From contig CAVQRT010000031.1 of the NCBI GenBank assembly GCA_963715195.1, positions 262,918-326,917 on the forward strand: a stretch of DNA of 64,000 nt. The letters run 5' to 3'. Source of the DNA: Thermodesulfovibrionales bacterium. GTDB lineage: Bacteria > Nitrospirota > Thermodesulfovibrionia > Thermodesulfovibrionales > SM23-35. Positions 1-12,433 of this stretch are shown here, piece after piece. Every line of letters begins with the position of its first letter. The first letter of the stretch is position 1. Made by a program: the position numbers and the translations under genes. Below the pieces are notes generated by a model. That model saw nothing but the letters and a program-made list of their open reading frames with translations. It did not search any database and had not been told where the DNA came from.

Positions 1-459
1 CTGAAGGCAGGGATACCTGTGACATCAAGGTTTGGTGGAGTCCTCCAAATTAATTCCGACCCGGTTCGTTTTACCGCCCTGATCGCCTATGAAGGCTCTT
101 CACTCGACCCCCTTGAGGTATTCATCAAGAGCAAGATGACCGATATCATGGGTGCTGTCGGAAATCATTCGGGAAAGATACTCGCAAGTTTCAGGGAAAT
201 ACCAGTGGTGAGTATCGAGAAAGCCACACAATTGAGAGCAACACTCACGGACAAGGGCATTGGTGGTGTTCTGCTCATCGGGAACCCCAACCAGCCACTC
301 CTTGAGATGCCTGTCGGACTTGACAGGGCAGGTATGATCATCGTCGGTGGTCTTAATCCGATAGCAGCCCTTGAGGAAGCAGGTATACCAACAATAACCA
401 AGGCTATGTCCACGCTCTATAAATTTTCTGAACTTATTCCTTTTCAGGAACTCATCTAA
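1..459 (+). CDS. NrpR-type (DUF128) regulator, C-terminal part. The ORF runs off the left edge of the window.
   Basis: Frame 1 is open from base 1 (LKAGIPVTSRFGGVLQ...). By eye, roughly three quarters of residues are identical to the C-terminal domain of the ORF at 7784..8773. Shared blocks: YEGSSLDPLE, GKILASFREIPVVSIEKA, LLIGNPNQPLLEMPVGLDRAGM, VGGLNPIAALEEAGI. Confidence 0.7.
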   Translation: MKAGIPVTSRFGGVLQINSDPVRFTALIAYEGSSLDPLEVFIKSKMTDIMGAVGNHSGKILASFREIPVVSIEKATQLRATLTDKGIGGVLLIGNPNQPLLEMPVGLDRAGMIIVGGLNPIAALEEAGIPTITKAMSTLYKFSELIPFQELI

Positions 460-1055: not shown

Positions 1056-2621
1056 ATGAGTCTAAGCAAGCCAAATGCAAGTGCTGCAACAGTAACAACC
1101 ACCAGGGTGTCACCATCGCCGATGTCAGGATTGTGCGTCAACTGTGTCGATGGCTGCCCCGGATACTGCGAGGTTGGCAGGTCTGCACTTCGTGGGAGAG
1201 AAATTCTCTATCCGCAGCCTTTCGGGAAGGTCATTTCAGGGGCAGAGAAAGATTATCCGGTTGATTTCTCACATTTCAATATACATGGAACGTGTGTTGG
1301 AGCTGTGGGAAGTGAGGCAGATCCTGATAAGGCAACATTCCCTTCTGTCAGCGTAGAGACAGAAATAACCGGTCAAGGCACCAAAATCCCGATGAAAGTG
1401 CCATTTTTCACCGGTGCCCTTGGCTCGACCGAAATCGCCCGTGTCAACTGGGAGGGCACAGCTATTGGTGCAGCCATTAGCGGGTCTATTCTCGTATGCG
1501 GTGAAAATGTCTGTGGAATGGATTCAAAGGCTGAGATCAAGAATGGAAAAATCGCGAATTCGCCCGAGCTCGCGCGGCGAGTAAAGACCTACAAGGACTG
1601 GTATGACGGATACGGTACAATGCTTGTTCAGTTAAATGTTGAGGACACCCGCCTTGGGGTTGCCGAGTATGCTGTAGAAAAACTCGGCGTGGAGGGCATT
1701 GAGCTCAAATGGGGACAAGGAGCCAAATGTATTGGTGGTGAAGTGAAACTGCCGACATTGGATAGAGCGCTCCAATTGAAACAGAGAGGGTATATTGTTC
1801 TCCCTGATCCTGAAAATAAGTCAGTACAGGAAGCACATAAACTTGGAGGCGTTGCTGAATTCGAGAGACACTCACGTCTTGGAATGGTTGAAGAAGACTC
1901 ATTTATGAAAGAAGTCGAACGGGTGAGAAAGATTGGCGCAAAATATGTGACCCTTAAGACAGGGGCTTACAGGCCGGTGGATCTAGCCCGTGCAGTTAAG
2001 TATTCATCGATGGCGAAAATTGACCTCCTTACGGTGGATGGTGCCGGTGGAGGGACAGGAATGAGCCCGTGGAGAATGATGAACGAATGGGGCATCCCGA
2101 CCGTCTATCTTGAATGCCTTTTGTACAACTATCTGAAAAGGCTGAAGGAAAAGGGTGAGTTTGTCCCGTCCGTTGCCATCGCCGGTGGTATAGTTCTTGA
2201 AGACCAGATTTTCAAGGCACTGGCACTCGGCGCTCCTTTTGTGAAAGCGATCTGCATGGGGCGTTCAACCCTTACCGCGGGAATGGTCGGCAAGTCCCAG
2301 GGGAATAACATCGAAGAGGCTTTTGGAAAAGGCAAGGAATACGAAGAGGCCCTGATGAGGACGTTTAACGGTGCGGCAATGCTGAAAGACAAATTTGGGA
2401 AGGATCTCAAGAAGATTCCCCCGGCAGCGATAGGGATATACACTTACTACGACCGGCTTGCTGTGGGATTGAGACAGCTTATGGCAGGGGCACGTAAATT
2501 CGCCCTGAAGTATATTGAGAGAAGTGATCTCATGTCGATGACCCGCGAAGCAGCAGATGTGTCAGGTATCCCGTATTTGATGGATGTCGACATGAAAGAA
2601 GCAGAAAATATCTTAGGATAA
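1056..2621 (+). CDS. Glutamate synthase-related FMN-binding subunit (stand-alone GltB domain-2 type)
   Basis: 521 aa. A strong SD (AAAGGAGGAGG) precedes the ATG. N-terminal Cys cluster CVNCVDGCPGYC. Blocks FFTGALG, GIELKWGQGAK, TVDGAGGGTGMSP and IAGGI..ALALGA are typical of the Glu_synthase FMN barrel family. Confidence 0.8.
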   Translation: MSLSKPNASAATVTTTRVSPSPMSGLCVNCVDGCPGYCEVGRSALRGREILYPQPFGKVISGAEKDYPVDFSHFNIHGTCVGAVGSEADPDKATFPSVSVETEITGQGTKIPMKVPFFTGALGSTEIARVNWEGTAIGAAISGSILVCGENVCGMDSKAEIKNGKIANSPELARRVKTYKDWYDGYGTMLVQLNVEDTRLGVAEYAVEKLGVEGIELKWGQGAKCIGGEVKLPTLDRALQLKQRGYIVLPDPENKSVQEAHKLGGVAEFERHSRLGMVEEDSFMKEVERVRKIGAKYVTLKTGAYRPVDLARAVKYSSMAKIDLLTVDGAGGGTGMSPWRMMNEWGIPTVYLECLLYNYLKRLKEKGEFVPSVAIAGGIVLEDQIFKALALGAPFVKAICMGRSTLTAGMVGKSQGNNIEEAFGKGKEYEEALMRTFNGAAMLKDKFGKDLKKIPPAAIGIYTYYDRLAVGLRQLMAGARKFALKYIERSDLMSMTREAADVSGIPYLMDVDMKEAENILG

Positions 2622-2632
2622 GGAGGAAGATA

Positions 2633-2854
2633 ATGCTTAATTTAATTTGCTATAAGTTCTGTTCATCACCCTTCTGCATGGTTAGTTGTCCTGCAGGTGC
2701 AATAAGTATCTCAACAAAGGATAACAATGTTTATGCCGACACGAATAAATGCAACAGGTGTGGTATCTGTCGTGGCATGTGTTCTATTCTGAGTTTTGAT
2801 AAAAATCTGAGAAGGAGAAGGCCGTGGGTGCGTGAGGATTTCGGCAAAAAATAG
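2633..2854 (+). CDS. Small 4Fe-4S ferredoxin-domain protein
   Basis: 73 aa with SD AAGGAGG. Contains CNRCGICRGMC (CxxCxxCxxxC) and a second, irregular Cys cluster ending in CP (CYKFCSSPFCMVSCP). Confidence 0.6.
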   Translation: MLNLICYKFCSSPFCMVSCPAGAISISTKDNNVYADTNKCNRCGICRGMCSILSFDKNLRRRRPWVREDFGKK

Positions 2855-2928
2855 AAGGCATATAATCATTCTCCTCTCTTTCGTTGTACCCATCAGTCAA
2901 GGATGAGGAGTTAGAGGAAGTTACAGGT

Positions 2929-3408
2929 ATGGAAGAAGAACTTTTAGAACAAATCTTATCATCATACTGTGGTCAGAGAAATGAACTCGTTCCGATCCTT
3001 CAGGAGGTTCAGGAAAACCTTGGCTACCTTCCGGAGAAGGTGATGCTGGATATTGCGCGCTTTGTCGGCGCTCCCGAAAGTCATGTATATTCTGTCGCAT
3101 CTTTTTATGCGCAGTTCAGAACACTGCCACTCGGCAAGAGACGAGTTGCTGTCTGCAGAGGTACGGCATGTCATATCAGAGGAGCGCCTCAAGTCCTCCA
3201 TGCAATTGAGGACTCAATCCATCTGAAGGAAGGGGAAACGTCTGAGGACCTTGAGTACACGCTCGAGACGGTTGCATGTATTGGATGCTGTGCTCTGGCC
3301 CCCTGCGTAAGAGTCAATAAGGACGTTAGCGGAGATATGACGCCGGAAAAAGCCATGAAACTTTTCATGAGGAATGGCAAAAATGACGGAAGAAAAAGGA
3401 TTAAATAA
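2929..3408 (+). CDS. NuoE/HndA-type [2Fe-2S] thioredoxin-like subunit
   Basis: Cys ligand pattern CRGTAC...CIGCCALAPC and a conserved N-terminal helix region (ILQEVQENLGYLP). The ORF is open from a TTG at 2884. The ATG at 2929 is preferred. Confidence 0.8.
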   Translation: MEEELLEQILSSYCGQRNELVPILQEVQENLGYLPEKVMLDIARFVGAPESHVYSVASFYAQFRTLPLGKRRVAVCRGTACHIRGAPQVLHAIEDSIHLKEGETSEDLEYTLETVACIGCCALAPCVRVNKDVSGDMTPEKAMKLFMRNGKNDGRKRIK

Positions 3409-5020
3409 GCGGCATGTAATCCTGGTATGTCAGGGGACGGGCTGCGTTTCAGGAGGGTCAGAACATATCTTTTCAGCCCTGAAAGATGCTTTGGAAACAT
3501 CGGGGAATGGAAAAGACATCCTTGTAAAACGCACAGGCTGCCATGGTTTCTGCCAGCAAGGCCCTCTTGCTGTTGTCGAGCCACAAGGTATTTTTTACAC
3601 AAAAGTGACAAGAGAGGATATCCCTGAAATCTTGCAGTCTATTTCATTAGGAGGCAAACCGTTGGAGCGCCTCTTATATCGTGATACATTTACGGATAAA
3701 CCAATCCTCCATTACCATGATATTCCTTTCTACTGGAAACAGCAGAGAACCATATTGAAATACTGCGGCAGCATTGACCCTGAAGACATCGATGATTACA
3801 GCGAGGTCGGGGGATACAGAGCTCTGCAGAAGGCAATCTCTGCAATGTCTCCTGAAGACATTATTGGAGAAGTAAAGGAATCGGGACTGAGGGGACTTGG
3901 TGGCGCGGGTTTCCCCACCGGCCGCAAATGGGAATCCTGCCGAAATGTGCCCGGAGATATCAAGTACGTAATCTGTAATGCTGACGAAGGCGACCCGGGA
4001 GCGTTCCAGGACAGATCAGTTATGGAAGGCAACCCTCACTCGCTTATCGAAGGTATGATCATTGCAGCCTATGCAATAGGAGCTCAACGAGGTTTTGTTT
4101 ATGTGAGGGCAGAGTATCCCCTTGCTGTCAGCCGCCTAAAAATTGCTATCGACCAGGCACAGAAAGCAGGTTTTCTGGGTGACGACATTGTGGGCAGAGG
4201 TTTCAGTTTTCATATCGACATCTTTCAGGGAGCAGGGGCCTTCGTATGCGGTGAATCGACGGCTCTGGTGCGCTCAATCGAAGGAAAGAGGGGTATGCCC
4301 AAGCCAATGCCCCGTCCGAGGACTACCGAGGAAGGATTATGGAATAAACCGACCCTTCTTAATAATGTCAAAACATTTGCAAATATACCGTTGATCATCA
4401 TGAACGGTTCAGAATGGTTTTCGCAGAGAGGGACAGAGAAAAGCAAGGGCACAGCCGTATTTTCTCTCACGGGAAAGGTGATGAACTGCGGCCTTATAGA
4501 AGTGCCCATGGGAGAAACGTTGCGGAAAATCATATTCGATATCGGGGGAGGAGTTTTAGGCGGCAAGTCCCTGAAAGCAATTCAGACCGGAGGGCCATCG
4601 GGCGGGTGCCTGCCTGCACACATGATAGATATGCCTGTTGATTTCGACTCGCTCACAAAAGCAGGTTCGATCATGGGTTCCGGAGGGCTTGTCGTGATGG
4701 ATGAGGATACCTGCATGGTCGATGTTGCACGATACTTTCTTGATTTTAACCAGAGGGAATCCTGTGGCCAGTGCATCCCCTGCAGGATCGGTACCCGGCA
4801 GATGTTCGAGATCCTTGAAGAAATCACAAGAGGGAATGGACGGCCCGGGGATATCGACCTGCTCCTTGAATTAAGCAGCTCAATAAAACAGAGTTCGATA
4901 TGCGGACTCGGCAAGACAGCCCCAAATCCTGTTGTCACAACGATTCGGTATTTTCGGGATGAGTACGAGGCACACATTAAGGAGAAACGATGTCCTGCTG
5001 GTGTATGCAGGATGAATTGA
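3374..5020 (+). CDS. NuoF/HndC-type NADH-binding FMN/[4Fe-4S] subunit with an N-terminal thioredoxin-like [2Fe-2S] domain
   Basis: Motifs GLRGLGGAGFPTGRKW, CNADEGDPGAF and ESCGQCIPCR. N-terminal CQGTGC...CHGFCQQGP. The ATG at 3383 is an alternative start with better SD spacing. Confidence 0.9.
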   Translation: MAKMTEEKGLNKRHVILVCQGTGCVSGGSEHIFSALKDALETSGNGKDILVKRTGCHGFCQQGPLAVVEPQGIFYTKVTREDIPEILQSISLGGKPLERLLYRDTFTDKPILHYHDIPFYWKQQRTILKYCGSIDPEDIDDYSEVGGYRALQKAISAMSPEDIIGEVKESGLRGLGGAGFPTGRKWESCRNVPGDIKYVICNADEGDPGAFQDRSVMEGNPHSLIEGMIIAAYAIGAQRGFVYVRAEYPLAVSRLKIAIDQAQKAGFLGDDIVGRGFSFHIDIFQGAGAFVCGESTALVRSIEGKRGMPKPMPRPRTTEEGLWNKPTLLNNVKTFANIPLIIMNGSEWFSQRGTEKSKGTAVFSLTGKVMNCGLIEVPMGETLRKIIFDIGGGVLGGKSLKAIQTGGPSGGCLPAHMIDMPVDFDSLTKAGSIMGSGGLVVMDEDTCMVDVARYFLDFNQRESCGQCIPCRIGTRQMFEILEEITRGNGRPGDIDLLLELSSSIKQSSICGLGKTAPNPVVTTIRYFRDEYEAHIKEKRCPAGVCRMN

Positions 5021-5072: not shown

Positions 5073-7760
5073 ATGGGTACGGTTACACTGAAGATTGATG
5101 ATCAGGAAATCCAAACCTGGCAAGGTGCCACTATCCTTGAAACGGCTCTGGAAAATAAAATCTATATACCACACCTCTGTTATCATCCGGACTTGAAACC
5201 TGCCGGAAGCTGCCGTATCTGCCTTGTGGAACTTGATAACGGCCGACTGGTGAATTCATGCAGGACCCCGGTAAAGGAAGGCATGGTCATAAGAACAAAG
5301 GGGTCTGAAGTCGATGCAGTGAGGCTGCCGGTTATTGAAATGATTATTGCCAATCATCATATGGACTGCAAGCATTGCCTAAAAAAAGGGCGGTGCCAAT
5401 TGCAGAAGATCATGGCATATATGAAGGTAGACAAAAAGAAAATTCAGGAGCGGATGAGACTGCCGAAAGCTGATATGCCACTTGATGAATCGAATCCTTT
5501 TTTTATCAGAGATCATAACAAATGTGTCATGTGCGGAATTTGTATACAGACCTGCAAAGAGATTGCAAAAGTTAATGCAATTGATTTTGCCGGCAGAGGG
5601 ATCCAGAGCAAAGTTGCTCCGTTTGCAGATAAGCCGATAACAGAATCCAGCTGCGTCTCATGCGGAGAGTGCGTAATCCGCTGCCCTGTTGGTGCGCTTG
5701 TTTTAAGGAATCCCAGGAAAGCTGTCACGTGGGTGAAATCTATCTGTCCATACTGCGGCGTCGGATGCGGCGTTCTTCTGGGCATCAAGGATAATGAAAT
5801 TGTTGAGGTGAGAGCTGATGCGTCGAGTGCGGTAAATTTCGGATGTCTTTGTGTAAAAGGTCGCTTCGGCATGGACTTTGTAAATTCACCGGACAGACTA
5901 AGCTACCCAATGGTAAGACAGGAGCGAGGAAAAGGAACAGACAAAGCAGCAGGTAAGGGGAGTAACAGCGGGTTTCTCGAGATTTCCTGGGACGAGGCAC
6001 TCGATCTTGTCGCAAAAAATTTGAAAAAATATAAGGGTGATGAATTTGCTCTCATAGCGTCAACTAAGTGCACTAATGAAGACAATTATGTGGCACAAAA
6101 GTTTGCAAGGGTCGTCATGGGGAGCAACAACATCGACACCTCAGCCAGACTCTACTATGGTCCGAACATCACTGCGTTGCGGAGTACGGGGAAATGTGTC
6201 GGGTTCAGTCCGCCAGACGACAGTGATGTCTTTCCGGTTCCGGCGAGACAAAATCCGGATCTGATCGAAAAGGCTGCCTGCATACTTGTTGCCGGGGCAA
6301 ATATTACCCAGTCACATCCGATATTAGGCCTGAAAATAAAGAAAGCGATTGATAACGGCGCGAAGCTTCTCGTCATAAGCCCGAATGAGACTGAACTCTG
6401 CCGAAGTGCTGAAAAATGCCTTAACCCCTATCCCGGTTCAGAACTGGCTCTTATTATGGGCATGTGCAATGTGATTGTCGAAGAGGAATTGTTTGACAGT
6501 GCATTCACAGGTATGTATTGCAATAATTTTGAAGAATTCAAAGAAGCACTCGGCGATTTTTCCCTTGGGAGGGTCGAAAGAATTACCGGGATTCCCCGTG
6601 ATATGGTCGAAGAGTCTGCCCGGACTTACGCGCTCAGCAAACCTGCTGCAATCTTCTGGGGTGCAGGAATCACCCAATATAGTCACGGGACAGACAGTGT
6701 TTATGCTCTCATAAATCTTGCAATTCTTACTGCAAATATCAAACATTCCTTTGCACTGAATCCCCTCTCAGAACAGAGCAATACCTTAGGGGCCTGCGAT
6801 ATGGGTTGCCTGCCTGACTATTATCCCTGCTATCAACCCGTTGGTTCGCCTGATATACAGGAACGATTTGAAGCTCTTTGGGAGTGTGCACTGAACCCGA
6901 AGCCCGGCCTTACCTTTACCGAAATAATAGATGCCACACTTGCAGGAAAAATCAAAGCACTCTATATTATTGGATCGAACCCGGCTGTGACAATCGCTCC
7001 ATCGAAAAAGGTAAAAGCTGCGTTGAAGAAAGCTAAATTTGTTGTTGTCCAGGACTTGTTCCTGAATGAGACAGCTCAATATGCCCACGTAGTCCTTCCG
7101 GCGGCAAGCTTTGCCGAAAAAACCGGTTCCTTTACGAATACAGGGGCTGAAACACAACCCATAGAAAAAGCACTTGAACCCTTTGGGAATTCAAGGCCGG
7201 ACTGGGAAATATTGTGCCGGCTTGCAGATAGAATGGACAGCAGAGGCTTTGCGTTTGCAAGCCCCGATGACATTCTGTCGGAGATGGTGGCGCTTATCCA
7301 GAACCTGCCTGAAACAATAGGAAAGTTTAGTTTGTTCCCGCTGCAATACAAAGCTCCGGCAGAGGCCGCAGACATGGATTATCCTCTTGTCCTGACGAGA
7401 GAGAGAGATTGTTACGCAGATGGCGTCATGTCTGAAAAAGCGCATGGCCTGAGAGAGCTTGGGTTGACAAACTATCTTCAGGTAAATCCAAAGGATGCCG
7501 CAGATTTTGGGATCGCTGACGGAGAAGCAGTTCGAATCGTTTCCCGGCACGGGTCTGCAGAGAGCAAGGCATTATTGACAGAATCAACTCCTGCAGGTCT
7601 CGCAGTCCTAAAAGAGGATCAAGAACACTTCAATTCGCTTTTGAATCCAGTTCTCGATGTAATATCAAGAACTCCTGAGATGAAAATGTGTTCAGTCAGA
7701 CTTGAAAAAGTTAAGGGGCACAAAAAGAGACAAAAGAATCTTGCAGTGAAATATGCATAG
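5073..7760 (+). CDS. FdhA/NuoG-like molybdopterin-oxidoreductase-fold subunit. It has an N-terminal 2Fe-2S site, a His/Cys cluster, two 4Fe-4S sites and an MopB-type domain, but lacks the canonical Sec/Cys-His active-site pair.
   Basis: 895 aa with SD GGAGG. Motifs CRICLVE, HHMDCKHCLKKGRCQLQ, CVMCGICIQTC, CVSCGECVIRCP and CPYCGVGCGV...CVKGRFG. The expected AR(V/L)[C/U]HGP block reads SARLYYGP. Confidence 0.85.
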   Translation: MGTVTLKIDDQEIQTWQGATILETALENKIYIPHLCYHPDLKPAGSCRICLVELDNGRLVNSCRTPVKEGMVIRTKGSEVDAVRLPVIEMIIANHHMDCKHCLKKGRCQLQKIMAYMKVDKKKIQERMRLPKADMPLDESNPFFIRDHNKCVMCGICIQTCKEIAKVNAIDFAGRGIQSKVAPFADKPITESSCVSCGECVIRCPVGALVLRNPRKAVTWVKSICPYCGVGCGVLLGIKDNEIVEVRADASSAVNFGCLCVKGRFGMDFVNSPDRLSYPMVRQERGKGTDKAAGKGSNSGFLEISWDEALDLVAKNLKKYKGDEFALIASTKCTNEDNYVAQKFARVVMGSNNIDTSARLYYGPNITALRSTGKCVGFSPPDDSDVFPVPARQNPDLIEKAACILVAGANITQSHPILGLKIKKAIDNGAKLLVISPNETELCRSAEKCLNPYPGSELALIMGMCNVIVEEELFDSAFTGMYCNNFEEFKEALGDFSLGRVERITGIPRDMVEESARTYALSKPAAIFWGAGITQYSHGTDSVYALINLAILTANIKHSFALNPLSEQSNTLGACDMGCLPDYYPCYQPVGSPDIQERFEALWECALNPKPGLTFTEIIDATLAGKIKALYIIGSNPAVTIAPSKKVKAALKKAKFVVVQDLFLNETAQYAHVVLPAASFAEKTGSFTNTGAETQPIEKALEPFGNSRPDWEILCRLADRMDSRGFAFASPDDILSEMVALIQNLPETIGKFSLFPLQYKAPAEAADMDYPLVLTRERDCYADGVMSEKAHGLRELGLTNYLQVNPKDAADFGIADGEAVRIVSRHGSAESKALLTESTPAGLAVLKEDQEHFNSLLNPVLDVISRTPEMKMCSVRLEKVKGHKKRQKNLAVKYA

Positions 7761-7783
7761 GAAAAGTCCCTTGAACAGGGTCC

Positions 7784-8773
7784 ATGTGTAGCTTTATGAA
7801 TAAAACCATGATTGCAATTCTGAAAATTCTGGAGCAGCATGAGGATACCATCCTTGGCTCAAGAGGGATTTCAAGACAATTGAAACAACATGGGATTGAA
7901 CTTACGGAGAGAACTGTGCGTTATCACCTGAGAATTCTCGATGAGCGGGGGTTTACCAAAGTATTTGGCAAGGAAGGAAGGATGATAACACAGAAAGGAA
8001 AAGTCGAGCTTTCGCATGCGTTAGTGTCTGACAGAATCGGTTTTGTTATCAGCAGGATCGAAAGTCTTTCGTATCTGACAAGCCTTGATCTCGAAAAAAA
8101 CGAAGGCGATATCATTCTCAATGTATCGTATTTTCCCGAAAAAAATCTGAAGGAAGCATTGCGGATAATGAGGCCGGTCTTTCTGTCGCCGTATGTTATG
8201 TCTGACAGGGTTATCATGAAAAGGGGAGGAGAGAAGATCGGAGATGTCCCGGTCCCGGATGAACAGGTTGGTTTTGGCACCGTCTGCAGTGTAACCATCA
8301 ACGGTATATTCCTCAAGTCAGGTATCCCTGTTATATCGAAGTTCGGTGGTGTCTTGCAGATAGAGGAAGCTGAACTGTCGAGATTTACTGCACTGATCAG
8401 TTACGAAGGTTCATCATTGGACCCGCTCGAAATATTTATCAAGAGCAGGATGACGGATGTCTTGGGTGCAGTTAGAAATCGCTCCGGGAAGATTCTCGCC
8501 AGTTTCAGAGAAATACCGGTGGTAAGCATCGAAAAAGCGGAAGAACTCTGGAACGAATTGAGAAAAAATGGCATACGGGGTATTTTGCTCATAGGCAATC
8601 CCAACCAGCCACTTCTCGAGATGCCTGTTGGACTTGACAGGGCAGGGATGGTGATCGTTGGCGGACTGAATCCAATTGCTGCACTTGAAGAAGCAGGGAT
8701 TGCGACGGTAACAAAAGCAATGTCCACCCTCCACAGGTTCTCTGACCTTGTGAAGTTTACGGAACTTCTCTAA
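7784..8773 (+). CDS. nrpR: NrpR-type transcriptional regulator (winged HTH plus one DUF128/NrpR domain)
   Basis: 329 aa. N-terminal TERTVRYHLRILDERGFT HTH block and C-terminal NrpR-domain blocks (GTVCSVTINGI, YEGSSLDPLE, ASFREIPV, GGLNPIAALEEAGI). Alternative starts lie at 7796 and 7808. Confidence 0.75.
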   Translation: MCSFMNKTMIAILKILEQHEDTILGSRGISRQLKQHGIELTERTVRYHLRILDERGFTKVFGKEGRMITQKGKVELSHALVSDRIGFVISRIESLSYLTSLDLEKNEGDIILNVSYFPEKNLKEALRIMRPVFLSPYVMSDRVIMKRGGEKIGDVPVPDEQVGFGTVCSVTINGIFLKSGIPVISKFGGVLQIEEAELSRFTALISYEGSSLDPLEIFIKSRMTDVLGAVRNRSGKILASFREIPVVSIEKAEELWNELRKNGIRGILLIGNPNQPLLEMPVGLDRAGMVIVGGLNPIAALEEAGIATVTKAMSTLHRFSDLVKFTELL

Positions 8774-9210
8774 GGCTCTTTGGACTTTTCCAGGAAGTCT
8801 AAAATATAATCACAGTACTCGTGATAATCTTTTAAACAATCTGTGATTGAAGAATAAATGCTGTTATAATCAACGACGTCATATTCATGAACCAGAATAT
8901 TCCTTGTTCCAACACTTCGGGCTATTCGCCGGGCAAATTCTTCCGGGCAAATACCGCAATCGGCAAGCCTCAGGAAAGTCTCAGCATAATCCAGCGGAGG
9001 ATTTGTATCTTTTGTTGATAGCTCTGAAATCAAATGATGATTTATATCAATAGCACGGTTGATAATTCTTTCCAGATACCGCTCAAGGGCTGCTTGTTTG
9101 ATGAAGTCACGTGTTATTTCTTGCAAAGAATATTTGGCTAAGTCAGCGAGATGAACGAGTTCATTCTGAATAAGGGTTATTTTCCTTAAAATAAAGTTTT
9201 CCCTTATCAT
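8770..9210 (-). CDS. hepT: HepT (DUF86) toxin of an MNT/HepT type VII toxin-antitoxin pair
   Basis: 146 aa with the Rx4HxY motif (RNILVHEY). It overlaps the upstream MNT gene by 4 nt. Confidence 0.8.
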   Translation of the reverse strand: MIRENFILRKITLIQNELVHLADLAKYSLQEITRDFIKQAALERYLERIINRAIDINHHLISELSTKDTNPPLDYAETFLRLADCGICPEEFARRIARSVGTRNILVHEYDVVDYNSIYSSITDCLKDYHEYCDYILDFLEKSKEP

Positions 9211-9656
9211 CTTGTCGCGGCTATCATTTCTTTTAATATCTTCTGCCGTTTTTTGATAAGAAATTTCTCAAGCGCAAAAAGAGGCTGAGAGTCGATATAT
9301 TCTTTGAAGGCAAAAGCTTTATGTGCAGCATATTCATCCTCGTCACCATAGAGTAAAATCCCTGATGAAATAACTTCGTATCTATGAAATGTATTAACCT
9401 TATTGAGATTTGTTAAATCTATTTTATTATCTGGGATACCGAACAGATCTGATAAAAAATGTAAGAGCTCAATATAATTGTTGAAATCAGCTATATTTCC
9501 TTTCTTTGTCGTTAATACTGCCACATCATAATCACTTTCTTCACGGACAGTTCCCATAGCCTGAGAGCCGAAAAGAACAAGAAATTTGATCCCATGTTCG
9601 ATTGCATATTGTTCAATATTTTCTTTATTGATTTCCATGAGTTTAATGTAGCACAT
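9207..9656 (-). CDS. mntA: MNT-type nucleotidyltransferase antitoxin
   Basis: GSxx...DxD nucleotidyltransferase signature (LVLFGSQAMGTVREESDYDVAVL). The ATG at 9638 (MEINKE...) is an alternative start. Confidence 0.8.
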   Translation of the reverse strand: MCYIKLMEINKENIEQYAIEHGIKFLVLFGSQAMGTVREESDYDVAVLTTKKGNIADFNNYIELLHFLSDLFGIPDNKIDLTNLNKVNTFHRYEVISSGILLYGDEDEYAAHKAFAFKEYIDSQPLFALEKFLIKKRQKILKEMIAATR

Positions 9657-9760
9657 AAGCGATGAAACAGCAAAACATACCCCGCAGCTTTACAACGGTT
9701 TGCATTTTTTATCAATAATTTACTATGCTTAATTATTAAACATTGGGAGGTAAGAAAGGC

Positions 9761-10108
9761 ATGACGATTACTGATAAGGCTGCTGAAAAGGCTCTGGCCA
9801 TCCTGACCGGCGAAGGCAAAGCGAACTGGGGGTTGCGGATATTTGTAGCAGGAGAAAGCTGCTGCGGCCCGTCATTCGGTCTCGATATGCAGGAAGAGCA
9901 GAGGCCTGATGATGAAGTTTTAGAGAAGAACGGTTTGAAGGTTTTCTTGGACAAACACACCATGTCAACGCTCACCGGAAGAGAGCTTGATTATTATGTC
10001 GGGGAAGAGGGTGAAGGGTTCGTCTTCACCGGGGGCGTCTCTACGTGCGGCACCGGAAGCTCTGCATGCGGCACCGGCGGTTCGGGCTGCAGCTCCTGCG
10101 GCGAGTAA
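9761..10108 (+). CDS. HesB/IscA-like Fe-S assembly accessory protein with a Cys/Gly-rich tail
   Basis: MTITDKAAEKA...RIFVAGESCCGPSFGL...F.F is the A-type-carrier fold pattern. The C-terminus is CGTGSSACGTGGSGCSSCGE. SD GGGAGG lies 10 nt upstream of the ATG at 9761. Confidence 0.65.
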   Translation: MTITDKAAEKALAILTGEGKANWGLRIFVAGESCCGPSFGLDMQEEQRPDDEVLEKNGLKVFLDKHTMSTLTGRELDYYVGEEGEGFVFTGGVSTCGTGSSACGTGGSGCSSCGE

Positions 10109-10117
10109 GACAGAGCG

Positions 10118-11089
10118 GTGTTCCCCGTTCATCGTCCGCGAAGACTCAGGAAAAATGATACGATCAGGAGAATGGTGAGGGAAACCTCACTGTCTCCTGA
10201 TCATTTTGTATATCCTCTTTTTGTTACCTCCGGCAAAGGCACACGGAAAGAGATATCCTCTATGCCCGGGTGTTATCAAGAGTCTATCGATACCGTAGCC
10301 AGGCATGCTAAGGAAGTCTTTGCGCTCGGCATTCCAGCGGTGATACTCTTCGGCATTCCCGAACACAAGGACGAGACCGGCTCGGGTGCATATGATGATC
10401 AGGGCGTCGTTCAGAAGGCTATCAGGTCAATAAAGAATAAGGTACCTGAATTGTTTGTCGCCACCGATGTTTGTTTGTGCGAATATACAAGCCACGGCCA
10501 CTGCGGAGTCATAAAAAATGGTGATGTGCAGAACGATCTAACCCTTGAATTGCTGGTGAAGGAAGCGGTTTCCCACGCGAAGGCCGGTGCTGATATGGTC
10601 GCTCCATCGGATATGATGGACGGAAGGGTCGGCACAATCCGCGCCGCCCTGGATGAAGAGGGATATGAAGAACTCCCGATTATGTCCTATGCCGCGAAAT
10701 ATGCATCGGCGTTTTACGGCCCGTTCAGAGATGCTGCCGAATCAACTCCCCAGTTCGGCGACAGGCGCTCATACCAGATGGATCCTGCCAACAGGAGAGA
10801 GGCCTTGAAGGAGGTGGCGCTTGATGTTCAGGAAGGTGCCGATATTGTTATGGTGAAACCCGCACTTGCATATCTTGACGTTATCTCAGATGTTAAGGAC
10901 GCTTTTGATGTCCCCGTGGCAGCCTACAATGTGAGCGGAGAATATTCACTCGTAAAAGCTGCCGGAAAACTCGGGTGGATAGATGAGCAGCGTGTCATGA
11001 TGGAGATACTTACCTCGATTAGGCGTGCAGGGGCTGATCTCATACTTACCTATTTTGCAAAAGAAGCCTCAAAAATTCTCAATAAATAA
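10118..11089 (+). CDS. hemB: Porphobilinogen synthase (delta-aminolevulinic acid dehydratase)
   Basis: The N-terminus [29 protein letters not shown], the zinc site [14 protein letters not shown], and MVKPA..YLD are all classic HemB blocks. GTG start. Confidence 0.95.
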
Positions 11090-11237
11090 TTATCTGCATC
11101 AAAGTTTTCCTTGACGCTTCTTTCCCCAGGACTTAGCCCAGATTATTCATATACTGTGGTACCTTGACAGGACACAATATTGTCGCTCATTCTCGGTCTT
11201 CGACCTCCGAGGAATTTTGCCTCATTATTATTGAATA

Positions 11238-11282
11238 CATAGTGTTTGAATATCTGCAAAATAAATCCGCTCAAACACTATG
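11238..11282. promoter_or_regulatory. Perfect 12-bp inverted repeat (CATAGTGTTTGA-N21-TCAAACACTATG) about 95 nt upstream of the octaheme cytochrome gene
   Basis: Read directly from the sequence. It lies in an intergenic region. Confidence 0.35.
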
Positions 11283-11377
11283 TCCTGTTAGTATCCAAGG
11301 AAATTTGTGAATTATATAGGTTAGAATGTAAGGGAAAATTTCATGCAATCATATTTATCATAGGAGGGAGGATTAAG

Positions 11378-12433
11378 ATGAAGAAGACGTCCATTATCCT
11401 GCTGTCAATGTTCGTTCTTATCGTGTCAGGGTTTCTTGCGCAGGGGTATTCTGAAGATGTCAAGAAGGAGGATTGTTTCTTCCTGTCGAGTCTTCATCAT
11501 ACGTCGAGGGGGATGGCTTACTGGTATGATAAAGCGAATGGCGGTCTTGAAACACTTACCGGCATACCGTATGCAAGTCCGAAACTCGATTGCACTAACT
11601 GTCACGTAAAGTCATGTGACGTCTGTCATAAGACGGTAACCGAAGATAAGTTGTCTTACTCTGTTAAAGCAGCGCAGAATCAGGATGTCTGTCTGAATTG
11701 CCATAAACGGGAAAAGACTCTCATGAAGATTGATAAAGATGCCAATCAGGTTGATGTCCACGTGGACAAGCAGATGCGATGCATGAATTGTCATAGAACG
11801 AGAGAAGTCCACGGTGACGGAAAGGAATATAATTCCATGAAGCAGCCTGGAGCGATCGATGCGAAATGCAAGAAGTGTCATCCGTCGGTTCCCGAAAGTA
11901 TCTCACATGAGATTCACGGGGATAGGTTGGAATGTAACGCATGTCACGTCCGTCATGTTGTAAGCTGTCAGAACTGTCATATTGAGACCATTATCAATGA
12001 GCGGAAGCGCGTAGATATCAAAGTCTCCGGATGGTTGTTTCTGATGAATTACGAAGGTAAGGTAACATCAGCAAATACCCAGACATTTGTGGTGCCGGGG
12101 AATAAGACCTTCATCTTATTTGCTCCACAGAACAGTCATTCGATCATGAGGGAGGGACGTAAGTGTGGTGACTGCCATGGTACTGATATCGTCAAACAGG
12201 CTCAGAATGGTAAGGTGAAGCTGACTTGGCTTGAAAACAATGAATTGAAGAATCTTAAGGGTGTAATCCCTGTCGTTGAGGGAGTGGAATATGATTGTGT
12301 ATATCAGGATTATAAAAACGGGAAATGGCTTCCCATCCAGAATCCACCATCACCTATGGTCCAATATAGCGGCTATGGCAAGCCCTTGACAAAGGATCAG
12401 TTGAAGAAACTGGCGCACCCGATGGGCAGGTAG
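11378..12433 (+). CDS. Exported octaheme c-type cytochrome
   Basis: Eight CxxCH motifs (CTNCH, CDVCH, CLNCH, CMNCH, CKKCH, CNACH, CQNCH, CGDCH). Signal peptide MKKTSIILLSMFVLIVSGFLAQG. SD GGAGGGAGG. Confidence 0.85.
   Translation: MKKTSIILLSMFVLIVSGFLAQGYSEDVKKEDCFFLSSLHHTSRGMAYWYDKANGGLETLTGIPYASPKLDCTNCHVKSCDVCHKTVTEDKLSYSVKAAQNQDVCLNCHKREKTLMKIDKDANQVDVHVDKQMRCMNCHRTREVHGDGKEYNSMKQPGAIDAKCKKCHPSVPESISHEIHGDRLECNACHVRHVVSCQNCHIETIINERKRVDIKVSGWLFLMNYEGKVTSANTQTFVVPGNKTFILFAPQNSHSIMREGRKCGDCHGTDIVKQAQNGKVKLTWLENNELKNLKGVIPVVEGVEYDCVYQDYKNGKWLPIQNPPSPMVQYSGYGKPLTKDQLKKLAHPMGR

What the first reader, a model, noticed from the sequence alone, without database searches (positions are those of the whole stretch)
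6153..6158. The FdhA-fold subunit has Tyr-Tyr where formate dehydrogenases carry the Sec/Cys-His catalytic pair
The 895-aa protein keeps all N-terminal Fe-S motifs and the MopB 4Fe-4S motif (CPYCGVGCGV...CVKGRFG). The block that aligns with the FdhH/FdsA active site, AR(V/L)-[U/C]-H-GP, instead reads SARL-Y-Y-GPN, with codons TAC TAT at 6153..6158.

The ORF contains no in-frame TGA, so this is not a missed selenocysteine. Each codon is one substitution away from TGC (Cys) and CAT (His).

Loss of the Mo/W ligand and the catalytic His argues that the subunit no longer oxidises formate. It may act as a NuoG-like electron-transfer scaffold or bind a different substrate.
Basis: partly seen in the sequence, partly recalled or inferred. 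Interest (0 to 1): 0.6.

Follow-up and report, generated by a model that had tools for sequence, protein, structure and literature searches.

The report
Catalytically dead formate-dehydrogenase-like subunit
This 895-residue protein has the shape of a formate dehydrogenase catalytic subunit but has lost all three catalytic residues, so it most likely acts only as an iron-sulfur "wire" and scaffold in a nitrogen-regulated, NADH-fed enzyme built around a glutamate-synthase-like flavoprotein.

Summary
Codons TAC TAT at 6153-6158 encode Tyr361-Tyr362, which align with the Sec/Cys-His pair of solved formate dehydrogenases. The active-site Arg is also lost (Ser566). Independent metagenome and metatranscriptome contigs carry the same codons.

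The protein belongs to a large clade (107 of 117 tree rows) that branches from canonical NAD-type FdhA. In this clade the three catalytic positions change state at least 15, 19 and 17 times, while most conserved control columns change 0-1 times. All five Fe-S sites are retained. The cap domain and active-site loop are partly degenerate.

Every one of the six full-length clade members whose context I inspected lies in the same operon. The order is Glu_synthase-family FMN protein (521 aa), 73-aa ferredoxin, NuoE, NuoF, FdhA-like, and NrpR or GlnA usually lies nearby. In three same-order operons (Dehalococcoidia, a Thermoproteota MAG) the subunit stops after the N-terminal Fe-S module and has no MopB domain.

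Best reading: this is a dead, NuoG-like electron-transfer scaffold derived from a formate dehydrogenase. Whether a pterin cofactor is still bound remains open. Non-catalytic FdhA-like proteins are already known (NuoG, FhcB, OmeA, StnC), so the subunit is a new member of a known kind. I found no description of the surrounding complex.

The parts
5073..7760 (+). FdhA/NuoG-fold subunit, 895 aa (P0001). It has an N-terminal 2Fe-2S site, a His-ligated 4Fe-4S site and two further 4Fe-4S sites, followed by a MopB module.
   Evidence: Pfam domains Fer2_4, NADH-G_4Fe-4S_3, Fer4_7, Molybdop_Fe4S4, Molybdopterin and Molydop_binding. TIGR01591 scores 568 bits, below the 666 cut-off. The AF2 model (pLDDT 80.8) best matches NAD-FDH alpha subunits: 7vw6_A TM 0.82, 6tg9_A 0.80, against NuoG 0.64-0.70.
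6153..6158 (+). Tyr361-Tyr362 (TAC TAT) at the position of the Sec/Cys-His catalytic pair.
   Evidence: The same codons are present in independent assemblies and contigs.
6768..6770 (+). Ser566 (TCA) at the position of the catalytic Arg (FdhH R333, RcFDH R587).
   Evidence: The roles of Cys386, His387 and Arg587 are taken from PMC7171172.
6192..6257 (+). Clade-specific insertion of about 20 residues (residues 374-395). It replaces the canonical GxGAM(S/T)N loop and contains Cys375 (6195-6197).
   Evidence: Alignment blocks. pLDDT is below 50 for residues 375-395.
5073..5897 (+). Fe-S relay, residues 1-275. Ligands are C36/C47/C50/C63 (2Fe-2S), a His of the conserved H95-H96 pair with C99/C102/C108, C151/C154/C157/C161, C194/C197/C200/C204, and FS0 C225/C228/C232/C260 with K262.
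   Evidence: These columns are invariant or nearly invariant in alignment A1. Codons were checked. Retention of canonical-conserved columns is 100% in the N-terminal region and 93% in FS0. dN/dS is 0.055 for the N-terminal region.
3374..5020 (+). NuoF-like FMN/NADH subunit, 548 aa. It has an N-terminal thioredoxin-like 2Fe-2S domain and no C-terminal 2x[4Fe-4S] domain.
   Evidence: Pfam and NCBIfam hits.
2884..3408 (+). NuoE-like 2Fe-2S subunit. The start is probably the ATG at 2929.
   Evidence: Orthologues are 157-159 aa.
2633..2854 (+). 73-aa ferredoxin-like protein with eight Cys (CX3CX4CX3CP ... CX2CX2CX3C).
   Evidence: Pfam Fer4 dicluster hits are below threshold. The protein is conserved at 73-92% identity in the same position in relatives.
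1056..2621 (+). Glu_synthase-family FMN protein, 521 aa (P0005), with an N-terminal CX2CX3CX3C motif. It is the presumed catalytic subunit of the operon.
   Evidence: PF01645 scores 52.6 bits. Homologues are 77-90% identical across phyla. The AF2 model is an FMN TIM barrel.
7784..8773 (+). NrpR-type regulator downstream of the operon. The C-terminal part of a second NrpR lies at 1..459.
   Evidence: Pfam HTH_12 and NRD1_2 hits.

Best explanation
P0001 descends from the alpha subunit of a NAD-linked formate dehydrogenase of the NuoEF-FdhA type and has lost formate-oxidising chemistry.

It works like NuoG of complex I. Its five conserved Fe-S clusters carry electrons from the NuoF FMN site (NADH) towards the small ferredoxin and the Glu_synthase-family FMN subunit encoded in the same operon. 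The MopB module survives as a folded structural or docking domain, not as a catalyst.

The operon is flanked by NrpR regulators, and in a Bacillota relative it follows glnA. It therefore probably reduces a 2-oxoglutarate-derived imine, a glutamate-synthase-like reaction.

Shown here: loss of the catalytic triad; drift at those positions; retention of the Fe-S sites; conserved gene order; existence of same-order operons without the MopB domain.

Inferred: physical complex formation, the direction of electron flow, the substrate, and absence of the Mo/W cofactor.
For: 1. Cys/Sec, His and Arg are replaced by Tyr, Tyr and Ser. TIGR01591 scores below its cut-off.

2. On a 117-row tree, canonical C-H-R proteins are basal, and an Arg-less clade of 107 rows has 100% support. 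The window lies in an xY[S/A/L] subclade nested inside C-H-W forms. Positions 361, 362 and 566 need at least 15, 19 and 17 state changes. Six of seven conserved control columns need 0-1; K262 needs 8.

3. Retention of 160 columns conserved in 49 canonical FDHs:
- N-terminal Fe-S 100%
- FS0 93%
- domains II-III 77% (canonical 91%, E. coli NuoG 37%)
- cap domain 56% (canonical 88%, NuoG 36%)
The active-site loop varies greatly in length, TNTERR is degraded to TNTGAE, and a conserved W-P..G..L-F segment is deleted.

4. dN/dS against a close relative: Glu_synthase 0.039, NuoF 0.084, FdhA-like N-terminus 0.055, MopB domains II-III 0.124, C-terminal part 0.199. Selection is relaxed but still purifying.

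5. Gene order Glu_synthase(521) - ferredoxin(73-75) - NuoE - NuoF - FdhA-like holds in all six Arg-less full-length members inspected, from YY to CHW and CQW forms, with NrpR or GlnA nearby. The nearest canonical homologue instead sits with a HydB-type NuoF and two MoeA genes.

6. In L016, L017 (Dehalococcoidia) and L022 (Thermoproteota MAG) the same gene order ends in an open frame of 227-277 aa. It is 50-55% identical to residues 1-210 and stops right after the last 4Fe-4S motif. About 20 further loci have nuoE-nuoF-NuoG(N)-only-glu.

7. Precedents exist for non-catalytic FdhA-like subunits.
Against: The MopB module is not decaying freely. dN/dS is about 0.12-0.2. P0001 keeps 54 of the 69 MopB columns that are at least 90% conserved in canonical FDHs, against 25 in E. 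coli NuoG. The kept columns include those aligned to FdhH K44, Q335, R581 and K679, so a pterin cofactor may still bind.

Every member of the Tyr362 clade that lacks Cys361 has Cys375 in the adjacent inserted loop (22 of 22).

Complex formation, NADH use and the glutamate-synthase-like reaction rest on gene order and domain homology only. The Foldseek neighbours of the FMN subunit are alpha-hydroxy-acid oxidases, not GltB.

I could not search the genome for Moco biosynthesis genes or for a canonical FDH.
Confidence: 0.62

Rival explanations
1. The MopB module still binds Mo/W-bisPGD, or a metal-free pterin. The ligand would be either absent or relocated to Cys375 in the inserted loop. The module would then perform a new reaction or act as an additional redox or sensing site in the complex.
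For: Retention is 77% of canonical-conserved columns in domains II-III, including columns aligned to FdhH K44, Q335, R581 and K679. Selection on the domain is purifying. In the Tyr362 clade the counts are 22 with C375 but no C361, 5 with C361 but no C375, 4 with both, and 0 with neither. Met157 of FdhH, in the loop that the insertion replaces, lines a tunnel to the active site (PMC7171172).
Against: C375 arose once on the tree, so there is a single independent contrast (sign test p = 1). At least eight other lineages of the same operon family lost Cys361 (to S, T, N, Y or G) with no Cys in the loop. Positions 361, 362 and 566 show many different states rather than a new fixed set. The cap domain that shields the pterins keeps only 56% of conserved columns and has deletions. 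Same-order operons work without any MopB domain. The loop has pLDDT below 50.
Confidence: 0.17
2. The complex is a true Bfu-type electron-bifurcating or confurcating enzyme. The 73-aa ferredoxin would supply in trans the 2x[4Fe-4S] domain that HydB-type NuoF subunits carry in cis. The FdhA-like subunit would be its BfuA. Its role as an Fe-S relay would be the same as in the best explanation, but the energetics would differ (NADH plus reduced ferredoxin).
For: The nearest canonical relative has a 626-aa HydB-type NuoF with C-terminal Fer4 domains. The small ferredoxin resembles that tail (42% identity over 36 residues, E = 9e-7, pairwise only). P0002 has the N-terminal 2Fe-2S domain. The nuoE-nuoF-NuoG(N)-glu loci have long NuoF open frames.
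Against: P0002 itself lacks the extra clusters that the Bfu review treats as defining for bifurcating BfuB (PMC9304861). Non-bifurcating RcFDH FdsB also has an N-terminal ferredoxin-like domain. The similarity of the ferredoxin is generic, and its Pfam hits are below threshold.
Confidence: 0.15
3. It is still a formate dehydrogenase with an unconventional active site.
For: The overall fold and 30-35% identity to NAD-FDH alpha subunits. Sources annotate relatives as formate dehydrogenase alpha subunit.
Against: The ligand, the His and the Arg are all absent. There is no in-frame TGA. The protein is below the curated FdhA cut-off. The three positions are not conserved among orthologues. The context has no Moco, FdhD or formate genes.
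Confidence: 0.03
4. Tyr-Tyr is an assembly or sequencing artefact, or the gene is a pseudogene.
For: None found.
Against: The identical protein occurs in four other assemblies. Contigs from three DNA metagenomes and one metatranscriptome show no difference at 6153-6158. A relative 84% identical has TAT TAT. The frame is intact and dN/dS is 0.12.
Confidence: 0.01

Closest known systems
NuoG / Nqo3 (75-kDa subunit of respiratory complex I)
   Same: Both have an N-terminal 2Fe-2S site plus 4Fe-4S clusters, including the His-ligated one, followed by a MopB-fold module without the catalytic residues. Both partner with NuoE and NuoF as the NADH input. Both are thought to derive from an FDH-like ancestor (PMC7171172).
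   Different: There are no membrane-arm nuo genes here. TIGR01973 scores 325 bits against a 470 cut-off. The MopB module is much less degenerate than in E. coli NuoG (77% against 37% of FDH-conserved columns). The fold is closer to FdsA (TM 0.80-0.82) than to NuoG (0.64-0.70).
FdsA / FoDH1 alpha, NAD-dependent Mo/W formate dehydrogenases (6tg9, 7vw6, 7e5z)
   Same: These are the best sequence and fold matches, with the same domain order and Fe-S complement and the same NuoE/NuoF-type partners.
   Different: Cys386, His387 and Arg587 are Tyr, Tyr and Ser here. The cap domain and active-site loop are remodelled. The operon partner is a Glu_synthase-family flavoprotein, and there are no FdsC/FdsD or Moco genes nearby.
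[quoted passage not shown]
   Same: These are FdhA/FwdB-fold proteins whose ligand Cys is replaced. They are proposed or shown to lack Mo/W-bisPGD and to serve as structural scaffolds in multi-subunit redox complexes.
   Different: They belong to different complexes (Fhc, Hdr-FdhB), lack the NuoG-type N-terminal extension, and are a different clade.
StnC / NsoC / SfrA (NuoG/FdhA-like parts of NuoEF- or GltD-linked oxidoreductases)
   Same: They are annotated as formate dehydrogenase but have no formate activity (shown for Stn). They act as Fe-S relays next to NuoE/NuoF-like or GltD-like flavoproteins (PMC7483475).
   Different: StnC is fused to a GltD-like NADPH module. Here the flavoprotein partner is a GltB-type FMN barrel encoded separately. 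Sequence similarity is weaker (8oh5 and 9bov rank far below the FDHs).
Dehalococcoides CISM / OmeA 'formate dehydrogenase-like' protein
   Same: It is an FDH homologue with Ser in place of Cys/Sec, lacks FDH activity, and has been re-used as an electron-transfer module (PMC5736913).
   Different: It is of the periplasmic FdnG type, is part of the organohalide respiration complex, and has no NuoEF partners.

Membership tests
Mo/W-bisPGD formate dehydrogenase alpha subunit (FdhA/FdsA/FdhH; TIGR01591) | Score at or above the curated equivalog cut-off. | tested here: not met
   568 bits against a cut-off of 666.25.
Mo/W-bisPGD formate dehydrogenase alpha subunit (FdhA/FdsA/FdhH; TIGR01591) | Sec or Cys ligand to Mo/W (FdhH U140, RcFDH C386). 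| tested here: not met
   Tyr361. There is no in-frame TGA.
Mo/W-bisPGD formate dehydrogenase alpha subunit (FdhA/FdsA/FdhH; TIGR01591) | Adjacent catalytic His (H141/H387) and active-site Arg (R333/R587). | tested here: not met
   Tyr362 and Ser566.
Mo/W-bisPGD formate dehydrogenase alpha subunit (FdhA/FdsA/FdhH; TIGR01591) | MopB fold with a proximal 4Fe-4S cluster (FS0) and the Lys44 equivalent. | tested here: met
   C225/C228/C232/C260 and K262. TM 0.80-0.82 to FDH alpha subunits.
Mo/W-bisPGD formate dehydrogenase alpha subunit (FdhA/FdsA/FdhH; TIGR01591) | A bound Mo/W-bisPGD cofactor. | not testable with these tools
   Only indirect evidence is available: 77% (domains II-III) and 56% (cap) retention of FDH-conserved columns.
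NuoG (complex I subunit; TIGR01973) | Score at or above the cut-off, and location in a nuoA-N operon with membrane subunits. | tested here: not met
   324.8 bits against 470. The neighbours are the Glu_synthase-family gene, the ferredoxin, nuoE, nuoF and nrpR only.
NuoG (complex I subunit; TIGR01973) | N-terminal 2Fe-2S, His-ligated 4Fe-4S and further 4Fe-4S clusters, plus a non-catalytic MopB module next to NuoE/NuoF. | tested here: met
BfuABC (HydABC-type) electron-bifurcating enzymes | BfuB carries extra clusters, including a C-terminal 2x[4Fe-4S] domain, in addition to the NuoF core (PMC9304861). | tested here: inconclusive
   P0002 has the N-terminal 2Fe-2S domain but ends after the NADH_4Fe-4S domain. 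A separate 73-aa eight-Cys protein lies upstream.
Non-catalytic MopB scaffolds (FhcB, HdrA-associated Molybdop, OmeA) | Ligand Cys/Sec replaced, and no conservation of the active-site residues among orthologues. | tested here: met
   Positions 361, 362 and 566 need at least 15, 19 and 17 changes on the family tree.
Glutamate synthase (GltB FMN domain, PF01645), for the partner P0005 | Pfam gathering score reached; a full-length match to the GltB synthase domain; a glutaminase partner. | tested here: inconclusive
   52.6 bits against 20.4, but only profile positions 187-302 of 369 are matched. There is no NCBIfam hit and no PDB sequence hit apart from designed TIM barrels. Foldseek neighbours are alpha-hydroxy-acid oxidases. 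GATase genes lie nearby in only some relatives.

The most novel reading that the evidence does not exclude
The operon would encode an undescribed, NrpR-controlled, NADH-driven (possibly ferredoxin-coupled) glutamate-forming enzyme that is widespread in anaerobes.

Its FdhA-like subunit family would preserve, among living sequences, a graded series in the conversion of an active formate dehydrogenase into a NuoG-like scaffold:
- C-H-R (canonical)
- C-H-W
- C-Y-x
- Y-Y-S (this window)
- MopB domain absent

This is the step long postulated for the origin of the complex I 75-kDa subunit. A bolder variant is that Cys375 has taken over as ligand and the pterin site has a new function.
Probability: 0.35. 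Interest if true: 0.72.

Novelty: new member of a known kind. Interest (0 to 1): 0.45.

Why it matters
**Annotation.** Sources label relatives of this protein "formate dehydrogenase alpha subunit" or "formate dehydrogenase (NADP+)". Metabolic reconstructions of Nitrospirota, Thermodesulfovibrionales, Actinomycetota and Bacillota MAGs will therefore wrongly infer formate or CO2 metabolism. Three alignment columns (361, 362 and 566 of this protein) together with the Glu_synthase/NuoEF gene context separate these proteins from true FDHs.

**Evolution.** The family offers many naturally occurring intermediates between a working FDH and a NuoG-like scaffold within one conserved operon. It can be used to ask which parts of a MopB domain are kept for structure and which for the cofactor.

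**Physiology.** The partner flavoprotein is about 60-93% identical across many anaerobic phyla in the loci examined. It sits beside nitrogen regulators and glnA, and I found no paper on it. The NADH module described here suggests an electron source for testing its function.

Tried and rejected
- **Whole-genome search.** I wanted to look for a canonical FDH paralogue and for moa/mob/fdhD genes. The genome search and the fetch from genomes were shut.
- **Rfam scan of the window.** No matches.
- **PDB sequence search with the Glu_synthase-like protein.** Only designed TIM barrels were found.
- **Literature.** Searches for the operon (glutamate synthase + NuoF + FDH + NrpR; Bfu + glutamate synthase; 'FMN-binding glutamate synthase') found no description. 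The Bfu review does not mention glutamate synthase.
- **Lists of MGD-contact residues.** Neither PMC7171172 nor PMC10869683 gives one in the text. I used columns conserved in 49 canonical FDHs instead.
- **'Relocated ligand' idea (Cys375 replacing Cys361).** The raw pattern is striking. It rests on one evolutionary origin, so it has no statistical support, and Cys-less, loop-Cys-less lineages contradict it. I kept it as a minor rival.
- **Distance from Cys375 to the former metal site.** AF2 coordinates are not exposed, so this could not be measured. The loop is low-confidence in any case.
- **Simple pseudogene or artefact.** Rejected.
- **The 73-aa ferredoxin as a detached HydB tail.** Only generic similarity was found.
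Full report
**1. The observation**

The + strand ORF 5073..7760 encodes 895 residues, has no in-frame TGA and ends in TAG. Pfam finds this domain order:
- Fer2_4
- NADH-G_4Fe-4S_3
- a 4Fe-4S dicluster domain
- Molybdop_Fe4S4
- Molybdopterin
- Molydop_binding

Codons 6153-6155 (TAC) and 6156-6158 (TAT) are Tyr361 and Tyr362, within NNIDTSARLYYGPN.

phmmer alignments to solved formate dehydrogenases put YY exactly on the Cys-His pair. The 7e5z/7vw6 block reads ...trlCHass. The 9wxb block reads ...arvCHsp. A MAFFT alignment puts YY on U140-H141 of E. coli FdhH, which I translated from fdhF.

It is also gone: the window reads PLSEQSNTLG, with Ser566 at 6768-6770. The roles of Cys386, His387 and Arg587 are as described for RcFDH in PMC7171172.

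**2. Is the sequence real?**

- The identical 895-aa protein is called on four other contigs from separate samples, and L001-L003 carry TAC TAT.
- Logan contigs of three DNA metagenomes from different studies and years cover 6153-6158 with no difference.
- A sediment metatranscriptome contig also covers it, and fragments of the whole operon appear in four RNA libraries.

These are assembled contigs, not raw reads, and RNA libraries can contain DNA. Agreement across samples still rules out an assembly artefact. The only nearby variant is G>A at 6111 (Val347 to Ile).

**3. Orthologues**

A search of 5.8 billion proteins returned more than 100 relatives at 50-84% identity over residues 220-720. 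When aligned, only three of them keep Cys-His plus Arg. The rest carry W, S, L, A, T, M or F at the Arg position, and the following pairs at the Cys-His position: CH, CD, CQ, CY, CS, SH, SD, SY, GY, YY, TY, HY and NH.

On a FastTree of 117 sequences rooted with canonical FDHs, the canonical C-H-R proteins are basal. One clade of 107 rows with 100% support has lost the Arg, with one exception. The window protein lies in an xY[S/A/L] subclade that is nested inside C-H-W forms.

Parsimony counts on that tree:

| Column | Minimum state changes |
|---|---|
| 361 | 15 (Cys gained or lost at least 11 times) |
| 362 | 19 |
| 566 | 17 |
| Six of seven FDH-conserved control columns | 0-1 |
| K262 (the seventh control column) | 8 |

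Codons in relatives show the one-step paths: TGC CAT, TGC CAA, TGT TAT, TAT TAT and TAC TAT. The former catalytic triad is therefore among the least constrained parts of the protein. This pattern fits a site that no longer does chemistry, not one retuned to a new substrate.

**4. How much of the rest is kept**

I took 160 alignment columns that are at least 80% conserved in 49 canonical C-H-R sequences.

| Region | Window protein | Canonical | E. coli NuoG |
|---|---|---|---|
| N-terminal Fe-S | 100% | 88% | 68% |
| FS0 region | 93% | 94% | 60% |
| Domains II-III | 77% | 91% | 37% |
| Cap domain IV | 56% | 88% | 36% |

Basal Arg-less members keep 82% in the cap domain.

The losses cluster around the old active site:
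- R333, G334, N336, V338 and Q339 (FdhH numbering) are replaced.
- The TNTERR motif has become TNTGAE.
- A W-P..G..L-F segment before the cap is deleted.
- FHF in the cap is lost.
- The GxGAM(S/T)N loop after the ligand is replaced by an insertion of about 20 residues. This loop varies greatly in length across the family.

All Fe-S ligands are invariant or nearly so.

dN/dS against an 84%-identical relative (dS about 0.6):

| Gene or region | dN/dS |
|---|---|
| Glu_synthase-like gene | 0.039 |
| Ferredoxin | 0.061 |
| nuoF | 0.084 |
| FdhA-like, N-terminal Fe-S part | 0.055 |
| FdhA-like, MopB domains II-III | 0.124 |
| FdhA-like, C-terminal part | 0.199 |

The MopB module is thus a folded domain under selection, but that selection is two to four times more relaxed than on the Fe-S relay.

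The AF2 model has mean pLDDT 80.8, and most of the MopB core is above 90. It matches NAD-FDH alpha subunits best (TM 0.80-0.82) and NuoG less well (0.64-0.70). The inserted loop 375-395 is below pLDDT 50.

**5. Genomic context**

In the window the gene order is:
- NrpR (C-terminal part, 1-459)
- Glu_synthase-family FMN protein, 521 aa
- 73-aa eight-Cys ferredoxin
- NuoE
- NuoF, with an N-terminal 2Fe-2S domain and no C-terminal Fer4 domain
- FdhA-like subunit
- NrpR

All six Arg-less full-length relatives I looked up have the same order. Their triads are YYS (x2), CYL, CHW, CQW and S-H-L. They include a Bacillota MAG in which the operon follows glnA and a second Glu_synthase paralogue.

The nearest canonical C-H-R homologue is different. 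It sits behind NuoE and a 626-aa HydB-type NuoF, next to two MoeA genes, with no Glu_synthase-family gene and no NrpR.

Identity to the window across five relatives:

| Protein | Identity to the window |
|---|---|
| Glu_synthase-like | 88-95% |
| NuoF | 75-91% |
| FdhA-like | 59-84% |

**6. The MopB module is dispensable in this operon type**

I scanned one genome per GTDB species with the Glu_synthase-like alignment and kept 80 loci. I then searched their open reading frames with HMMs built from the operon proteins.

Three loci have the window's gene order (glu, fd, nuoE, nuoF): two Dehalococcoidia MAGs (L016, L017) and a Thermoproteota archaeon MAG (L022). In these the next frame is only 227-277 residues from stop to stop. 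It is 50-55% identical to residues 1-210 of P0001 and ends with a stop right after the last 4Fe-4S motif. The downstream genes I inspected show no match to the operon HMMs.

About 20 further loci from Aminicenantes, Eubacteriales, Zixibacteria, Ignavibacteria, Planctomycetota and others have nuoE, a long nuoF, a NuoG(N)-only gene and then glu. An Ammonifex MAG has a full-length subunit with T-H...L.

What these operons share is the N-terminal Fe-S relay, not the MopB domain.

**7. Mechanism proposed**

- NADH is oxidised at the NuoF FMN.
- Electrons pass through the NuoF 4Fe-4S cluster and the 2Fe-2S and 4Fe-4S clusters of the FdhA-like N-terminus.
- They then reach the 73-aa ferredoxin, which would play a role like NuoI next to NuoG.
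- From there they go to the N-terminal Cys cluster and FMN of the Glu_synthase-family subunit.
- That subunit would reduce a 2-oxoglutarate-derived imine.

The MopB module serves as a structural or docking body, as it does in NuoG.

Shown here: the residue losses, the drift, the retention of the clusters, the synteny, and the MopB-less variants. Inferred: the physical complex, the direction of flow, the substrate, and absence of the cofactor.

The substrate inference rests on three points:
- NrpR genes flank the operon. NrpR is a 2-oxoglutarate-responsive nitrogen repressor in methanogens; this is from established knowledge and was not tested here.
- glnA and GATase genes are neighbours in relatives.
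- PF01645 is matched.

It is weakened by three points:
- The Pfam match is partial.
- There are no NCBIfam or PDB sequence hits.
- The Foldseek neighbours of a medium-confidence model (pLDDT 66.7) are alpha-hydroxy-acid oxidases.

**8. Rivals**

*(a) A pterin cofactor is retained, with no protein ligand or with Cys375.* In the Tyr362 clade every sequence without Cys361 has Cys375 (22 of 22), and none lacks both. However:
- Cys375 arose once, so there is one independent contrast.
- At least eight other lineages lost Cys361 with no Cys in the loop.
- The cap domain is degraded.
- MopB-less operons exist.

I give this about 0.17.

*(b) A Bfu-type bifurcating enzyme with the small ferredoxin acting in trans.* This is possible but unsupported beyond generic similarity. 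It would not change the role of the subunit.

*(c) Still a formate dehydrogenase, or (d) an artefact.* Both are effectively excluded.

**9. Comparison with what is known**

Non-catalytic FdhA/MopB-fold proteins are established:
- NuoG.
- FhcB, with Cys replaced by Ser and no cofactor.
- The Molybdop protein of type II HdrA clusters (PMC12054007).
- Dehalococcoides OmeA/CISM, with Ser at the ligand position (PMC5736913).
- StnC, NsoC and SfrA. StnC has no formate activity despite its annotation (PMC7483475).

Among 150 representatives (50%-identity clusters) that match this protein best, only about a third keep C-H-R, so loss of the triad is common.

The Tyr-Tyr pair is therefore a new member of a known kind. 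Two things look new. The first is the host complex: I found no paper on a Glu_synthase-family, NuoEF and FdhA-like operon. The second is the graded decay series within one operon family. Earlier notes of this scan on other genomes reached a similar reading of related operons. I treated them as leads and re-derived the key points independently.

**10. Limits**

- Whole-genome search was shut, so I could not test for Moco genes or a canonical FDH elsewhere in this genome.
- The tree is a FastTree with local supports only.
- The read-level check used assembled contigs.
- Cofactor status cannot be decided by sequence alone.

**Verdict**

The subunit is a catalytically dead, NuoG-like Fe-S scaffold derived from a formate dehydrogenase (confidence 0.62 for the whole statement, more than 0.9 for "not a formate dehydrogenase"). 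Interest is moderate.

Noticed in passing
window 1056-2621 (P0005); loci L015-L094: The 521-aa Glu_synthase-family FMN protein keeps nearly the same length and is about 60-93% identical across Nitrospirota, Dehalococcoidia, Bacillota, Actinomycetota, Thermodesulfobacteriota, Aminicenantes and even a Thermoproteota archaeon MAG. This is unusually high conservation, or reflects horizontal spread, for a protein with no assigned function. Cultured carriers include Desulfacinum infernum DSM 9756 and Desulfotomaculum copahuensis.
   Followed up: partly
window 1056-2621: The AF2 model of P0005 (pLDDT 66.7; residues 1-96 below 50) is an FMN TIM barrel. Its best PDB fold matches are lactate monooxygenase, glycolate oxidase and flavocytochrome b2, not GltB. 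The 'glutamate synthase' label is therefore weak.
   Followed up: partly
window 2633-2854: The 73-aa ORF has eight Cys in an unusual first motif (CX3CX4CX3CP) followed by CX2CX2CX3C. It is conserved at 73-92% identity in the same slot in relatives but is only sub-threshold for Pfam ferredoxin models.
   Followed up: partly
window 6195-6197 (Cys375) and 6192-6257: A clade-specific loop motif, RRTGKCVGF, lies next to the former active site. All 22 relatives without Cys361 have this Cys, but the Cys arose only once on the tree.
   Followed up: yes
window 6111: A G>A variant (Val347 to Ile) occurs in contigs of one DNA metagenome (X7) and one metatranscriptome (X26). It is a natural strain polymorphism 42 nt upstream of the YY codons.
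   Followed up: no
window 1-459 and 7784-8773; L004, L005, L007: NrpR genes bracket the operon. In relatives, a further unit of HTH/KaiC-like regulator, Glu_synthase paralogue (about 533-543 aa, 64% identical to P0005) and NrpR precedes it. The window starts inside the upstream NrpR, so that part cannot be seen here.
   Followed up: partly
L013 (Dehalococcoidia MAG) 7224-12169: Here the same Glu_synthase-like gene follows NrpR and a HisF-like gene, and is followed by a DAO-type FAD oxidoreductase, with no NuoE, NuoF or FdhA-like gene within the 9-kb flanks fetched. The electron-input module therefore appears to be exchangeable.
   Followed up: no
window 5928-5966 (residues 286-298): A Gly/Lys-rich insertion (GKGTDKAAGKGSN) in the MopB module relative to the solved FDHs has pLDDT below 50.
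   Followed up: no
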